A stretch of DNA of 28,898 bases from Elusimicrobiota bacterium (lineage in GTDB: Bacteria > Elusimicrobiota > UBA8919): contig JBDRIG010000101.1 in the NCBI GenBank assembly GCA_043816185.1, forward strand, positions 1 through 28,898, in the 5' to 3' direction. Made by a program: the position numbers. Position 1 is the first letter of the stretch; the number at the start of each line of letters is the position of its first letter. Of the stretch, positions 1 to 6,000 are shown in pieces.

Positions 1-3000
1 AGTATTATTTAGCATTATCGATAGTAGCAAAAGAATATACTCCGAATTTGAAAAATAAATATCCAGAACTCGATAGTTTTTTTGAGTATATACGACTAAA
101 TTACAGTATAAATCCAATATATTTAATATTAGAAGAGAAAGCACTTACAAGAAACATTCTTAAGCGATATACTGGCAAGCAGTTAGATAACGAAGTACTG
201 TTTTTATCAGAGATGGGCGAGCATCTGAGAAATTTCTTAGATTTGAAAATTACATACGATGAGTTTAGTTATTTTAGTTCAAATGTTAGCACATTTAAGG
301 TATTACTAAAAAAATATTTTGAAGATGTTGAGGTGGATGATGTAATAAAGTTCGTAGAAAATGAAGAGATATGTTCGTTTTACAAAGTGAATATAGAAAG
401 AGACAATATATTTTATGAAACATTAAGTAAGGAAATAAGTAAGGGAGTTCAGAGTTCAGAGTCCGGAGTTCAGGGTAGTGGTGGTAAGATAACTTTATCT
501 AATGTGTCAAACCCTCAACTTAACGCAGGCGATTACACAGATGTAATAAATAGACTTAAAGAATTTAACGAGATAGAAATAATAGTTACAGGTGGATTTC
601 ATTTCAACCTAACAGAGATGTTGAATAAAAAAGGCATTTCTTATCTCACTATAATTCCTAATGCAACAAAAAAATTTGATGAATCTATTTACGAAAAAAT
701 TATAACTGGTAAAACGGATTTAATAGATTTTATAACATCAGCATTTGCAGCAATGTTGATAAGTGTGGATGTGAATTCTGAATCGCAGCGTGGTTTGATT
801 TTAAGCATAGCAGCATTCTATATGCTGAAGAAAGGCTACTCCAGCGATAAGATCAAAAATATCATAGATGAATGGCGGGAAGTCAACAAAATAGAAGAAG
901 AACTCGTTGTTAATAAGGAAAAACATAGTGTAAAAATTGGAGATGAAGTTTATAAATTTGAAATAAAAGATGGTAAAATAGTGAATATAGTATTAGAAGG
1001 TAAAAGTAAGAGGTTAGAAGAGAAAAAGGTTTCGTTGTCCAATCGTATAGGGGTTAGTGCCTTTATAATCTCAGTTTTTGGTGGGATTGCAACGCTTGTA
1101 TTAAGTAGTCCACTTGGTTGGTTTGTTGGCGGTATATTCGCAGCATTACAAATTGCACAGATTTATTTTATAACCGAAGTGAGTCGAGAAATAGGACAAG
1201 AAGTTGGTTTGATTAATGAATTTGGTGAACTTCCACCACAACAAAAAGTGCGTACTAATAAATTTGTGCCTGCAAAAACAATAGGTGGAGAAATACATAT
1301 TAATTCTGTATTGATGTCCCGCCTACCAGAATGGCTGCAAAGAGTGTATTGGAAACATGAAAATAGACATCTCCAATTTGCTAAAAGCAAATTTGCCCAA
1401 AAACGTCCATTAGCATATAAAATATTTTCCTACGAATTCCTGCCAGATTTATCTATTGAAGAAATTTGTGTCTCATTATTGGAAGTAATTTTTTTAATCA
1501 GAACTACTGATAGTAAATATTGGCCATTGGTTGCTGAAAAATTGGTTGCTGAAAAGTCTGTTGTCGAAAAACGAGCTGCCGAGAAATCGATTGTCAAAGA
1601 GCAAGTTGTCAGAGTATTAAAAACGCTTGGCACAGCACTACGTTCTCCTGTTTTACTTGGTTTGGTTTTGTTATGGGCAATCGCCGCTCAAACGGAATCT
1701 GTTTTGTTAGGTGCTGGTGTTTTTTCAGATAGCATTATTGGCGGCTTGGCTATCGGTATGACTTCATTGTCTGCGGGTAAAACTAAAATTTCAAAAAAGG
1801 AAGCGCAGAAAATTTTAGCAGAATTTGTTCCGAATGATGAAGGTTTTAAATGGCTAAGAAAACCCAATATTGATAAAGAAGAAACAGTATCTGTTACAAA
1901 TAGTAAACCTGGTTTATCGGGATTTTTGAATGAAATCAGTGAACTTTGTCTTAAGGGAGATGAGGGAATTTGGAGTTTACTTTACCATTCAGGACGCGGT
2001 GATATATTAAACTATTTAGTAGACTATTTAGATTTTCTCTCAAAAAAACACCCATATTTTAAAGAATTCAACGATGCTATCAACAATCTTAAAACTGCCG
2101 CAGCGGCGACTGACAACCTGCACGAAAAAGTTGTTTTAAATATAGAAGCAATTTTACTCGCAAATAATCTTGTTAACCGTCTCAACCCTACCGATAAGAG
2201 TGCTAAAGCGAAATTACCGCAATTAGGTGAAGTTAGAATACACAGTCCGCCCGAAAAATTAAGTTTTGGTTATAGAAAAGAGCAATTTAGAAAATTTTAC
2301 GAAAATAAGGATGATAAAGATTATGCAGCATCCGTGGCGGAAACTTTATTTTATTACGGAGGAGATAGCAATGTAATAGATGCTGCCTTACTCCACAAAT
2401 TATCCAAGGAAAAAATTGACGCTGCTTTTGAAGAAGTTGGATTGTCGAGCAAAGACAGAAAAGAAATTTTAGAACTCATCGCCATCTTAGATAGAACCAT
2501 TCAGATTCCATATGGACCTTCCAGAGGTGCTCCGTCAAACACAATTGAAAATCAAATGCTACTTATTTTCCAATCTGTGAAATCCTCGAATGGGTTTCTT
2601 TTAGTAGTGGCGGAGCGATTGTATGCACTTAAAACCGCAGAGAAGGATGATTGCGATGATATTGAAAGTTCTATCCAATTGCAGATTCGGCATATTTATG
2701 GTCCCATAGCAGAAATGCTTGATTTAAAAAATATTTCCAAAGAATTATGGAATCTTTCTTTAGAAAAATTAATTGGAAAAGAAATTTTAGATGAAATAGC
2801 AAAGAGAATTATAGGTGTTTACAATGATAAGGCAATTGAAGAGCAGGTAAGAGATTGGTTAAAAAATAATAACATTTCAAAAGCAGATATTTATGTCCGA
2901 TTAAAAGAACCTTCCAGTATAATAACTAAAATTACCAAAAAGAATATAGCTGAAATAGCAAATGAATTTATCATCAATGATCTTGTTAGTGTGACAATTG

Positions 3001-6000
3001 TTTTACCTAATACTGAGGAAGTAGGAAAAGTACGGAAATCAATAGAAGACGACGAAACCATAGGTATACCCGGCAAAAAATTTGTTGAAACTAAACCAAC
3101 AGTCTTGGATTTTACACAGTTTCATTATGAATGTAAAGGAATAGAAGTTAGATTAATGACCAAAGGAGATTATGATAAATATCTGCATGGAAATTATGCT
3201 CACTGGAAATATAAATTATCAAGGGATTTGAGTGCTACAAGACGATTCAAGAATCCTCAAGAGTTTGGTGGTTTTTTGATAGAACTGGGAAAAAACTTTA
3301 AAGAAAATTTTGATAAAGTATACGAATCTGTAAAAGATAAACCAGTTGTTATTAAATATTTAGAAGATGAAACGTTCTTTCCGATTATTGAATTGGAGCA
3401 ATCGCAAGAAGACCAAGGAGACGAATATGATGTTTTTAAACCTGCACAATTTGAAAGATTGAATGAAAAGATTAAAGAATTAAGAAAGAAACAAAAAGTA
3501 GATGTGGAAACTTATTATGATGCTAAAAATGGAAATAGTACGATGTCTATTGAGATTAGTATAAAAAATGATATTCCAGGCTATCTACTTAAAATCTTAA
3601 ACGTGATATTACCGGTAGAACATCTTTTGTCGTATCGTATGTTTATGTCAAAAACAAAAGGAACGGCTGAGATAAGAATTACTATTCCTCATGATATAAA
3701 AGATGAAGATAAGCGTGCTAAAATAATAAAAGAACTTGAGGAAATTACAGCAAGTAAAGAACAAACAATATATGCTAAAGAATTGATAAAAGAAACAATA
3801 AAAATAGAGGTTATTGCTGATAAGCTCGATAATGTTCGCAATATTTTAGAGGGAATTGCTGGTATAGACAAGCGAATTAATATCAATCATATTGAGGTTG
3901 GAGAATCCGAAAAGGTTGCAATCAATAGCTTCTGGTATATTATTAAAACTGCTGCCACTATTGCGAGAAATGCATTCGGAATTACTCCAGGAATTTCCAA
4001 GAGCGAGAAAATAAGTTTTACATTTGATTTAGGCCTACCAGAAGGAGTAGATTTTGAGACAATTAAAACATCGTTAGAAGAAATTGCTGTAATTTCTGAG
4101 GTTAAGAATTTATCTAAAAAAGAAGAACAAGTACAAAATCCTATTGTTGCAGGAATATTGCCACTCTTAGTAGTTTTCAAAGAATTTCAAAATATATCAG
4201 CAACACTTGCAGGGAAAATACGGCGTTTGTTTGAAGAAGCAACGAATGTTACATCTGAAAAATCATATTACAAAAATTATGCAGATATTTTAAAAGAAAT
4301 TGCTGGTTCTAATGGCATTTTCGTGATATCAGATGCCATAATAATAGAGACAAAGGAGAATCTCAAAGATATATACCCACTTATAACATTGGACGGAAAA
4401 GGAGTTTTAAAAATTGTTAATCTATTCGCAGATTTCATACATAATAATGGCCCACCGCAAAAGTTTGTTGAAATGTCTGATGGAAACGAAAAAGAAGCAC
4501 TTAGAAAATTATTTGGAGCAATACTAAATCATGAACAAATAGAATCGTTTGCCTTAGGTATCATTGATGGTGGTACTAAAAACAAAAGTTTATATGATGC
4601 CTATTCAAAATATCTGGAAGAAATCTCCGAAATTAAGGACAGAAACCACGTAACATTCCATAAATTTCTTGAATATCTTGTCAAATCAGAAAAAAACGAC
4701 GATCAAAACCTCGCAAAGTTAATTAATGCTTCCGACCAGATTATTCTTTTGGAATATGCTGCTGACTTCCTTTGTGAAAAATCAGTAGGTGATATTAGAT
4801 ACAGACTACCAAATGGACAAATTTTACAAATTGGTGCATTAAAAGGTTATGACAAAGTACATAAAAAATTAGGAGTAAAAGCAGCGGATGTTCTTGTAGT
4901 TCAAGATGAGCTCGTTTCATCGTCTAATGAAAATTTATTTCCAGTAATTATGAATATGATATTCGACTACGTGTTTGATATTTATGCTGGCCGCATGTTT
5001 GGGCCTGTATCAGAAACTGACAAACGACCCTGCTTTGTTGTGTTTAATGAAACAGGCGAATGGCCACAAGGAGGTCCACGACTAACACTCGTTGTAACAC
5101 AAAAACAAAAAGAAAAATTAGAAAAGATGATTGCTAATGCCTTTTTGGGACCTGAAAGTGAAAGACCGGAAAAAACATTTTTTAATGTTAACCATATTGT
5201 GAAATTTATTGTAGAAAAAGAAGGTGTTGCTGATTTAGGTAATGATGTAAAATTAAAAGTAGAAAGACAGGAAGATAAAAAAGTTATCTGCAACGTTGAG
5301 GTTAAAGGTGAAACTAAGAAAAAATTGGACTTCGAGAATGCTGTTAAATTTGATTTAGAACTTGGCATAAAACTTGAAAAACCAATAGTTCCACCTGCTT
5401 CAGGAATGGTTGCAGTAACTGTCGGTGCTGGCTCTTTTGGTTCAGAACTTGGAACTATTTTAAATACTTCTCTTCTTGTAATTATAAGAAACAAAGATGG
5501 TTCCTTGACAAGGATTGCTGTTGATCCGCATGGATACTTTGATAAAGTTTTAGAGGAAATGGGTTTATCAACAGATATTGATTATATTATAAATACCCAT
5601 ACACATCCTGATCATTTTGAAGGAACGCTAGAGCAGTCTGCGACCAAAGGTGCTAAACTTATAGCAGCAGGATCTGACCTCAATGGAAAGCGTGATGTAA
5701 AAGAATGTATAAATAATGAAATCGACATACTGTCAAAATTGACAAAACGTAGTATAAAAGATCATTTGCGATTTCTGGAAGGCAAAAAAAATACTGAAAC
5801 TGGGGTTTGGGATTACGAATTGCCTAATGGGACACATATAAAGTTTATGCACGTTGTGCATAGTATTCCTACAGCAGCAATAAGAATAGAGACACCAAAA
5901 GAATTAGGCGGCGGGACATTGATTCATGCACCCGATTTTAAGGAAGCAGAAAAAGATAAAAAATTAATGGAGTTTTTATTTGGTGATGGAGAAAATATTC

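What a model noticed while it worked through the whole genome (the two positions that open the first line are those of the whole stretch)
2322..3218. Catalytically degenerate RelA/SpoT module inside the 9,632-aa giant protein
The giant protein listed earlier as an orphan contains a complete Rel N-terminal hydrolase-synthetase module whose catalytic motifs are eroded (HD to HK, RLHN and the synthetase DxxxxR/YxSLH motifs altered). It is the only RelA/SpoT-family match in this assembly and belongs to a clade of pseudo-Rel modules found in other very long proteins.
Evidence so far: HD_4 (E 4e-5) followed by RelA_SpoT (E 1.7e-5); PF04607 over the cut-off and the sole hit in the genome. AF2 model top Foldseek hits are all Rel/RelA/SpoT, E 1.2e-9. 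Best homologs are 1,500-8,000-aa proteins. Alignment: query and four closest shown read LLHK/HS/HH instead of LLHD and lack RLHN, while six canonical Rels keep them.
(Added by a program. Inside this text positions count along the whole contig: contig position 1 is position 1 of the stretch shown here. "Call 12" and the like, gene names such as g00115 and contig names such as C1 are that model's own, and its searches are not shown. The text may have been shortened before it was handed on; [...] marks where a part breaks off. The agent that wrote the report below was given it as the finding of a first reader that could run no searches.)

Follow-up and report, generated by a model that had tools for sequence, protein, structure and literature searches.

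The report
Exported rewired stringent-response enzyme module
A giant bacterial protein carries a copy of the starvation-alarm enzyme Rel that has lost its alarm-destroying half but kept the machinery for using ATP, so it looks repurposed for export rather than dead.

Summary
The module is real, but it is longer than reported and only half degenerate. It spans about 2247-4115: dead HD hydrolase, synthetase, linker and two ACT domains. A model folded from family rows only still matches Rel (pLDDT 78, Z 18.9).

Across 25 non-redundant family modules (26% mean identity), the hydrolase site (56/195) and guanine-acceptor loop (19/153) are eroded. The ATP/Mg residues R241, K243, K251, D264 and E323 (RelSeq numbering) are kept 120/124, and HWxYK 93/96. 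A proven dead synthetase, Acinetobacter SpoT, lost the Mg-binding Asp.

The family forms one branch apart from housekeeping Rel and occurs in Elusimicrobiota, Omnitrophota and Saganbacteria. It sits in giant proteins and in stand-alone ~700-aa forms. In 10 of 24 carriers nothing membrane-spanning separates a signal-like N-terminus from the module.

This genome truly lost its housekeeping rel (empty syntenic site). The module is unlikely to replace it: 10 of 14 carrier genomes have both.

Best reading: an exported, hydrolase-dead, ATP-dependent pyrophosphotransferase effector with an altered acceptor. Activity is untested.

The parts
3..28898 (+). Giant multidomain protein fragment, 9,632 aa, open at both ends. 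Its start matches residues 327-548 of the conserved N-terminal domain of another carrier, so about 320 aa and any signal peptide are missing.
1044..1763 (+). Hydrophobic segments upstream of the module (aa 348-385, probable hairpin; aa 542-587, two weaker segments). They leave the module's side of the membrane unresolved in this protein.
   Evidence: Kyte-Doolittle scan
2247..2774 (+). Pseudo-HD hydrolase domain (aa ~749-924). H77 kept; D78>K, H53>Y, D144>E, N148>A. Carries the family-specific P-Y and N positions (P836, Y837, N850).
2778..3236 (+). SYNTH domain (aa ~926-1078). Donor/Mg residues kept (R966, K968, S972, K976, D993, E1048, H1067-W1068-Y1070-K1071). R269>T998, Q325>R1050, Y308>F1037; H312 kept (H1041); the DYIxxPKxN loop is replaced.
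3237..3488 (+). Linker with a short remnant of the TGS start. No TGS or zinc-finger domain was detected.
3489..3755 (+). First ACT-like domain (aa ~1163-1251)
   Evidence: model secondary structure; VIA matches over model 435-646 to tandem-ACT regulatory domains (3l76 Z 12.4, rmsd 4.9, 160 aligned)
3786..4115 (+). Second ACT domain (aa ~1262-1371) with a low-confidence insertion
   Evidence: 2f1f Z 10.9, rmsd 2.0, 78 aligned; Rel ACT 6lxg Z 10.4; weak Pfam ACT E 0.008

Best explanation
The module is a long-RSH enzyme captured once, long ago, into the exported proteins of host-dependent bacteria and rewired as an effector. Shown: the HD site is eroded; no TGS/ZFD is detected; the ATP/Mg donor site is selectively kept; the acceptor loop is remodelled; ACT domains are kept, doubled in the window's subgroup; many carriers have a signal-like N-terminus with no membrane segment before the module. 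Inferred: the protein is exported unfolded, which spares the producer. It reaches a compartment holding ATP, most plausibly the cytoplasm of a host or prey cell. There the synthetase binds ATP-Mg and transfers pyrophosphate to a 3'-OH acceptor, without needing a ribosome and with no hydrolase to undo the product. The acceptor is probably not strictly GDP/GTP: candidates are another nucleotide or an RNA 3' end. The dead HD domain would act as scaffold or substrate clamp, and the ACT pair might gate activity by amino-acid levels.
For: Residue retention in 25 non-redundant modules (26% mean identity): R241/K243/K251/D264/E323 120/124, HWxYK 93/96, against 267/750 for 32 other canonical-invariant columns. 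In the six-member subgroup holding the window the figures are 29/30 and 23/24. In RelP these positions bind the ATP phosphates and Mg (PMC5794853 passages; PMC7983052 passages). The proven dead pseudo-synthetase of A. baumannii SpoT lost the catalytic Asp and changed the first Arg (PMC9974481 passages). A member left out of the count, P0039, keeps by eye R, K, S, K, D, R269, Y308, H312, E, Q and HWxYK and has a signal-like start. Purifying selection in relatives: dN/dS 0.11 for SYNTH and 0.13 for HD in G199/G111 against 0.21 for the whole gene; 0.19 and 0.26 in G188/G220. An N-terminal hydrophobic segment was found in 17 of 24 carriers, 10 with no other membrane segment before the module. Exported RSH synthetases are proven in other bacteria (PMC12691689).
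Against: No activity was measured. The window has Phe at Y308, and the same Tyr>Phe change is used to cripple FaRel2 (PMC11782079 passages). It lacks R269 and Q325, which contact the donor adenine; the equivalent of Q325 is called catalytic in PMC9974481. All characterised toxSAS and exported synthetases that I read about keep these. P0004, in the window's own subgroup, lacks the E323 equivalent, and P0010 lacks R241. The window's own N-terminus is missing and hydrophobic segments precede the module, so its topology is not shown. Seven of 24 carriers show no N-terminal hydrophobic segment; three of these are partial. Signal peptides were judged by hydropathy and by eye only. Delivery into another cell is not shown for any giant protein.
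Confidence: 0.5

Rival explanations
1. Binding without catalysis. The donor site is kept to bind ATP-Mg or another nucleoside triphosphate/(p)ppGpp, and with the ACT pair the module reports the nutrient state of the host to neighbouring domains of the giant protein.
For: Only the phosphate/Mg residues are invariant; both base-contact sets drift. The window has Tyr>Phe at the acceptor stack. Tandem ACT domains resemble amino-acid-sensing regulatory domains.
Against: Stand-alone forms have no partner domain to regulate, and P0008, P0011, P0012 and P0013 lack ACT domains. Both acidic catalytic residues are kept.
Confidence: 0.22
2. It is still an ordinary (p)ppGpp synthetase, exported to force a stringent response in the host or prey, and the remodelled loop tolerates GDP/GTP.
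For: H312 and an aromatic residue at 308 are kept in the window (aromatic in 17 of 24 members). P0039 has a nearly complete site. Exported (p)ppGpp-specific synthetases exist (PMC12691689).
Against: Y299, K304, N306 and R327 are kept in 0/23, 4/24, 2/19 and 0/24 members. R269 and Q325 are lost in the window.
Confidence: 0.15
3. One reading: a doubly dead pseudo-Rel kept as a structural spacer or protein-binding scaffold.
For: The HD site and acceptor loop are eroded; the window is only about 21-25% identical to canonical Rel; branches are long.
Against: The six best-conserved charged columns of the family, out of 116, are K243, K251, K346, R241, D264 and E323. A scaffold gives no reason to keep exactly these.
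Confidence: 0.09
4. The module replaces the lost housekeeping Rel in the producer's own cytoplasm.
For: It is the only RSH match in G000; G371, G180 and G204 also have only the module.
Against: Ten of 14 carrier genomes keep a canonical rel as well. G001, G002 and G009 have the same empty rel site and no module was found in them. A synthetase with no hydrolase partner and no TGS would be unregulated. Many carriers look exported.
Confidence: 0.04

Closest known systems
Long RSH enzymes Rel/RelA (HD-SYNTH-TGS-HEL-ZFD-ACT)
   Same: HD+SYNTH fold (Z 18.9, rmsd 5.1, 301 aligned to B. subtilis Rel 8acu); C-terminal ACT; donor-site residues; dead HD as in RelA.
   Different: Embedded in giant or signal-bearing proteins; no TGS/ZFD detected; ACT doubled in this subgroup; acceptor loop, R269, Q325 and R327 changed; separate branch from 131 canonical sequences.
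Exported alarmone synthetases (SaEAS, VpEAS, AaEAS; PMC12691689) and Tas1/Apk1
   Same: RSH synthetase behind a Sec-type signal or export domain; proposed action outside the producer.
   Different: Those are SYNTH-only enzymes with a canonical site. That survey stopped its search to exclude multidomain RSHs (section 9). This family keeps the long-RSH body and has a remodelled acceptor site.
tRNA-pyrophosphorylating toxSAS (FaRel2, CapRel)
   Same: Same donor residues (FaRel2 R64, K66, S70, K74, D90, E145); precedent for a changed acceptor with a reduced phosphate-binding patch (PMC11782079).
   Different: FaRel2 keeps R95, Y128 and Q147, whose equivalents are T, F and R here. No antitoxin gene or domain was identified. 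Similarity is weak (profile E 0.03; Foldseek E 8e-3).
A. baumannii SpoT pseudo-SYNTH
   Same: Long RSH with one domain dead and a changed G-loop and adenine site.
   Different: Mirror image: it keeps an active HD and lost the Mg-binding Asp (PMC9974481); this family lost the HD site and keeps the Asp in 24 of 25.
Giant multi-enzyme proteins of Omnitrophota/Elusimicrobiota (10.1101/2023.11.21.568195; 10.64898/2026.06.07.730766; PMC11573180)
   Same: Same class of carrier: very long, membrane segments, cytoplasm-type enzyme domains behind a signal peptide.
   Different: The main texts of the two preprints have no occurrence of 'SpoT' or 'ppGpp'. Their supplementary domain catalogues could not be read.

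Membership tests
RSH superfamily (long RSH) | HD-fold domain followed by a SYNTH domain | tested here: met
   Pfam; family-only model matches Rel; family profile hits Rel structures at E 5e-50
RSH superfamily (long RSH) | C-terminal ACT domain | tested here: met
   Two ACT folds
Ribosome-activated Rel/RelA | TGS and ZFD domains that contact tRNA and ribosome | tested here: not met
   No Pfam TGS hit in the window or in P0007, P0009, P0010, P0011, P0012; only about 85 residues lie between SYNTH and the first ACT in the window
Bifunctional Rel | Intact HD metal and catalytic site (H53, H77, D78, E81, D82, D144, N148) | tested here: not met
   Window keeps H77 only among these; family 56/195 over nine HD positions
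(p)ppGpp synthetase | ATP/Mg donor residues R241, K243, S247, K251, D264, E323 | tested here: met
   All six present in the window; 120/124 plus S247 20/25 in the family
(p)ppGpp synthetase | Adenine contacts R269, Q325 and guanine-acceptor loop (Y299, K304, N306, Y308, H312) | tested here: not met
   Window keeps H312 only, with Phe at 308
(p)ppGpp synthetase | Makes (p)ppGpp from ATP and GDP/GTP | not testable with these tools
   Needs an enzyme assay
Pseudo-synthetase (SpoT of A. baumannii type) | Loss of the Mg-binding Asp and the first ATP-stacking Arg | tested here: not met
   D264 24/25 and R241 24/25 kept; contrast from PMC9974481 passages
Exported alarmone synthetases | Export signal ahead of the SYNTH domain | tested here: inconclusive
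   Window N-terminus missing; hydrophobic N-terminus in 17 of 24 other carriers by hydropathy only
Exported alarmone synthetases | Small-alarmone-synthetase (SYNTH-only) catalytic unit | tested here: not met
   HD-SYNTH-ACT-ACT body
toxSAS toxin-antitoxin modules | Cognate antitoxin gene or fused antitoxin domain; growth toxicity | not tested
   The contig holds no neighbouring gene; no PADLOC match for the window module; toxicity needs an experiment

The most novel reading that the evidence does not exclude
This is an undescribed class of exported long-RSH effectors of host-dependent Elusimicrobiota, Omnitrophota and Saganbacteria. They keep the ATP-Mg chemistry of Rel but pyrophosphorylate an acceptor not yet known for this fold (a non-guanine nucleotide or an RNA end), under amino-acid control from tandem ACT domains, inside a host or prey cell. 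The stand-alone signal-bearing forms would show that the cytoplasm-type domains of the giant proteins are cargo of a dedicated export route.
Probability: 0.3. Interest if true: 0.85.

Novelty: new variant of a known kind. Interest (0 to 1): 0.7.

Why it matters
What the giant proteins of Omnitrophota and Elusimicrobiota do, and on which side of which membrane their enzyme domains work, is an open question. This module offers a clean test. It has a known fold, a predicted catalytic pair, ATP as an obligate cytoplasmic substrate, and ~700-aa stand-alone versions that can be expressed. If active, it adds a long-RSH class to the exported alarmone synthetases and possibly a new product, and it argues that these proteins act inside other cells. 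It also warns against calling domains 'pseudo' from one motif: Pfam misses most family members, while their donor site is under strong constraint.

Tried and rejected
1. Two word-index protein searches with the window module found nothing. A third, with the family alignment, returned 62 proteins; they carry TGS domains and look canonical. The full HMMER scan and genome searches were needed.
2. Single-sequence AlphaFold failed (pLDDT 35.8) and was not used.
3. Locus scans with P0008 and alignment A2 gave mostly canonical rel: 0 of 3 and 2 of 80 loci were family members (L076, L077).
4. Sequencing runs: no RNA holder listed; one DNA run with a share of 0.07. Laid on the window it gave only short pieces. 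No use was made of it.
5. ESM Atlas gave only sub-0.9 leads to Rel-like clusters.
6. NCBIfam gave no match to the module beyond one weak unrelated hit; PADLOC gave none for the window module.
7. 'Canonical rel is missing from the bin' was rejected by synteny.
8. Bin contamination looks unlikely. Tetranucleotide correlation of the contig is 0.979, fifth lowest of 51 contigs and grouped with other giant-gene contigs, and it shares its first 141 bases with contig C106.
9. The careful tree did not finish; the quick IQ-TREE and FastTree trees were used, no root was tested, and long-branch attraction is not excluded.
10. The equivalence of RelP His190 (ATP ribose) with RelSeq H342 could not be verified from a paper and is recalled.
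11. The conserved N-terminal giant-protein domain was not found with a distant query in five close relatives, which shows little.
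Full report
Observation. The window is a single open frame of 9,632 aa, open at both ends. The reported stretch gives HD_4 (E 5.6e-5) then RelA_SpoT (E 3.3e-6, just over cut-off). It is the only match to either family in the 1.44-Mb, 94%-complete assembly. A profile of 24 relatives' Rel proteins run over all six-frame ORFs of 25 aa or more also hit only this ORF, apart from one E 0.6 row. The organism is inferred to be Elusimicrobiota. A close carrier, P0055, is named so by its source, same-phylum genomes encode equivalent proteins, and the relatives' ~490-aa Rel lacks ACT as described for Elusimicrobium minutum (PMC3153485 passages).

The module is longer than reported. 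The best homologues align over residues 32-633 of a 646-aa query. An AlphaFold model from 16 family rows, with no canonical Rel among them, reached pLDDT 78.2 and pTM 0.74. Its best matches are Rel, RelA and SpoT (Foldseek E 6e-11; VIA Z 18.9, rmsd 5.1, 301 aligned), and its C-terminal part matches ACT domains. The anatomy is pseudo-HD (nt 2247-2774), SYNTH (2778-3236), a short linker, and two ACT domains (3489-4115). No TGS or zinc finger was detected.

The family. I collected 27 modules: the window, 14 proteins from the HMMER scan, 10 from same-phylum genomes and 2 metagenome loci. Two near-duplicates were dropped before counting. A 28th, P0039, was recognised later and is not in the counts. 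Seventeen of the 27 lie in ORFs of about 1,500 aa or more. Five are stand-alone ~680-780-aa forms, one of them (L076) split by a stop. Five are partial or of other size. Source names give Elusimicrobia, Omnitrophota and Saganbacteria. At least 14 of 401 sampled genomes of the phylum carry one; this is a lower bound, since only two candidates per genome were scored. In a quick IQ-TREE tree, 23 modules lie on one side of a branch with support 100 against 31 canonical Rels (two fragments left out). FastTree gave the same split against 131 canonical sequences once P0039 is counted as a module. Branches are long and no root was tested, so a single origin is likely but not proven.

Which residues are kept. 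In RelSeq numbering, over 25 modules of 26% mean identity: R241 24/25, K243 25/25, K251 25/25, D264 24/25 and E323 22/24 (together 120/124), S247 20/25, and H342-W343-Y345-K346 93/96. By contrast R269 and Q325 are kept 15/49, the acceptor loop and R327 19/153, and the HD site 56/195. Of 32 other columns invariant in canonical Rel, none is kept at 90% (267/750 overall). The window keeps every residue of the first group. From papers: D264 and E323 are the Mg-binding catalytic pair, R241 and R269 sandwich the ATP adenine, and Y308/N306 hold the guanine (PMC7983052 passages). RelP K80, S84 and K88, which have the same spacing as K243, S247 and K251, bind the ATP phosphates (PMC5794853 passages). 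That RelP His190 (ATP ribose) equals H342 is my recollection, not verified. The proven dead synthetase of A. baumannii SpoT lost the Asp and changed the first Arg (PMC9974481 passages). The family therefore keeps the pyrophosphate-donor half of the site and has rebuilt the acceptor half. In five of the six members of the window's subgroup, loss of R269 goes with Lys/Arg at 325; the sixth keeps R269 and has Gly at 325. This may be compensation, which is an inference.

Results against catalysis. The window has Phe for Y308, the change used to cripple FaRel2 (PMC11782079 passages). Q325 is called catalytic in PMC9974481 and is Arg here. P0004 lacks the E323 equivalent and P0010 lacks R241. Nothing here measures activity.

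Selection. No close relative of the window gene was found. In other carriers the module is under purifying selection: G199/G111 give dN/dS 0.13 (HD), 0.11 (SYNTH) and 0.13 (ACT) against 0.21 for the whole gene. G188/G220 give 0.26 and 0.19, with synonymous sites near saturation; in G084/G096 the SYNTH value was saturated.

Not a substitute for housekeeping Rel. In 6 of 6 relatives checked that have rel, the order is a ~330-aa gene, rel, rpmB, recG. On contig C27 of this genome the same neighbours are contiguous with no rel and no remnant. G001, G002 and G009 show the same empty site and no module was found in them; G007 is rearranged and the anchor gene was not found in G004. Conversely, 10 of 14 carrier genomes keep a canonical rel. 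Loss of rel and gain of the module look independent.

Location. By hydropathy, 17 of 24 carriers begin with a signal-like segment, and in 10 no membrane segment lies between it and the module, including the stand-alone forms P0008, P0011, P0012 and P0013. Nine of the 24 end in Ala-Ala. Seven show no such start; three of these are partial. The window's own start is missing and hydrophobic segments precede the module, so its topology is inferred from the family. The genome has two PF00437 secretion/pilus ATPases, which is common and weak evidence.

Mechanism. I put 0.5 on an exported, hydrolase-dead, ribosome-independent ATP pyrophosphotransferase with an altered acceptor, acting in a host or prey cell. 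I put 0.22 on a nucleotide/amino-acid sensor without turnover, 0.15 on a plain exported (p)ppGpp synthetase, 0.09 on a dead scaffold and 0.04 on a stand-in for the cell's own Rel. It works most like the exported alarmone synthetases and toxSAS, but it is not a member of either as defined: it keeps the long-RSH body and fails their acceptor-site motifs.

Novelty. Exported and toxic RSH synthetases are known (PMC12691689: abstract, section 9 and passages; PMC3482391 passages), but as SYNTH-only domains. Giant proteins of these phyla are known (10.1101/2023.11.21.568195 passages; 10.64898/2026.06.07.730766 passages and sections 8 and 21; PMC11573180 passages; 10.1101/2025.01.14.632903 passages). 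The first two have no occurrence of 'SpoT' or 'ppGpp' in their main text; their supplements were closed and may list the Pfam hit. Searches listed no paper describing this family, in a library that lacks most subscription journals. PMC7058999 (passages) was read for amino-acid binding by Rel ACT domains, which is reported but not always regulatory. Verdict: a real, undescribed variant of RSH, more interesting than 'pseudo-Rel', with its activity still to be shown.

Noticed in passing
window 1-141 and G000 contigs C106, C99: The window's contig and C106 start with an identical 141 bases and then diverge (46% aa identity over ~290 aa). C106 and C99 (a complete 7,136-aa giant ending in Ala-Ala) end in an identical 141 bases. 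The giant genes share N-terminal and downstream cassettes that broke the assembly, which suggests recombining polymorphic loci.
   Followed up: partly
window 5343-6302: Metallo-beta-lactamase-fold domain with an intact-looking HxHxDH motif; weak Pfam and NCBIfam hits below cut-off.
   Followed up: no
window 6303-7202 and 7300-7480: Histidine-kinase-like ATPase (weak HATPase_c, E 0.019) followed by a signal-like hydrophobic segment and a LysM-like domain. The internal signal-like segment suggests a polyprotein layout.
   Followed up: no
window 4780-5150: By eye, a degenerate GGDEF-like stretch; no library hit, resemblance recalled.
   Followed up: no
window 4527-4545 and 1350-1370: Two zincin-like HExxH-related motifs by eye (aa ~451 and ~1510), both imperfect.
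   Followed up: no
window 17400-23100: About 1,900 aa of Tyr/Asp/Gly-rich beta-hairpin repeats resembling YD/RHS by eye, preceded by a beta-barrel-like stretch (aa ~3830-4190) and ~80-aa helical repeats; no Pfam hit for the repeat regions.
   Followed up: no
window 25983-28400: GT2/OpgH-like glucosyltransferase domain followed by many membrane segments; Atlas leads 0.87-0.88 to GT2 clusters, no PDB sequence hit.
   Followed up: partly
L065:3050-3550 (G000 C27, between the ~330-aa gene and rpmB): The site of the deleted rel holds ~500 non-coding bases with a ~115-base element bounded by near-perfect 14-base inverted repeats (MITE-like, by eye); in G001 the same gap is ~35 bases.
   Followed up: no
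P0008, P0011, P0012, P0013, P0039, L076: Stand-alone forms share an A-[LF]-R-P motif right after the signal-like segment, and most end in a C-terminal xAA tail also seen on several giants; a possible two-ended export signal.
   Followed up: partly
G000 contig C18:1-7179: A 5'-open 2,393-aa giant fragment with an intact-looking GGDEF domain, a HAD-like domain and glycogen-type enzyme domains (by eye). It could be the continuation of this gene, but no overlap was found.
   Followed up: partly
same-phylum genomes: No Rel-like match at E 1e-25 in 101 of 401 genomes, including 43 of 44 in one genus; loss of the stringent-response enzyme is common and patchy in this phylum.
   Followed up: partly
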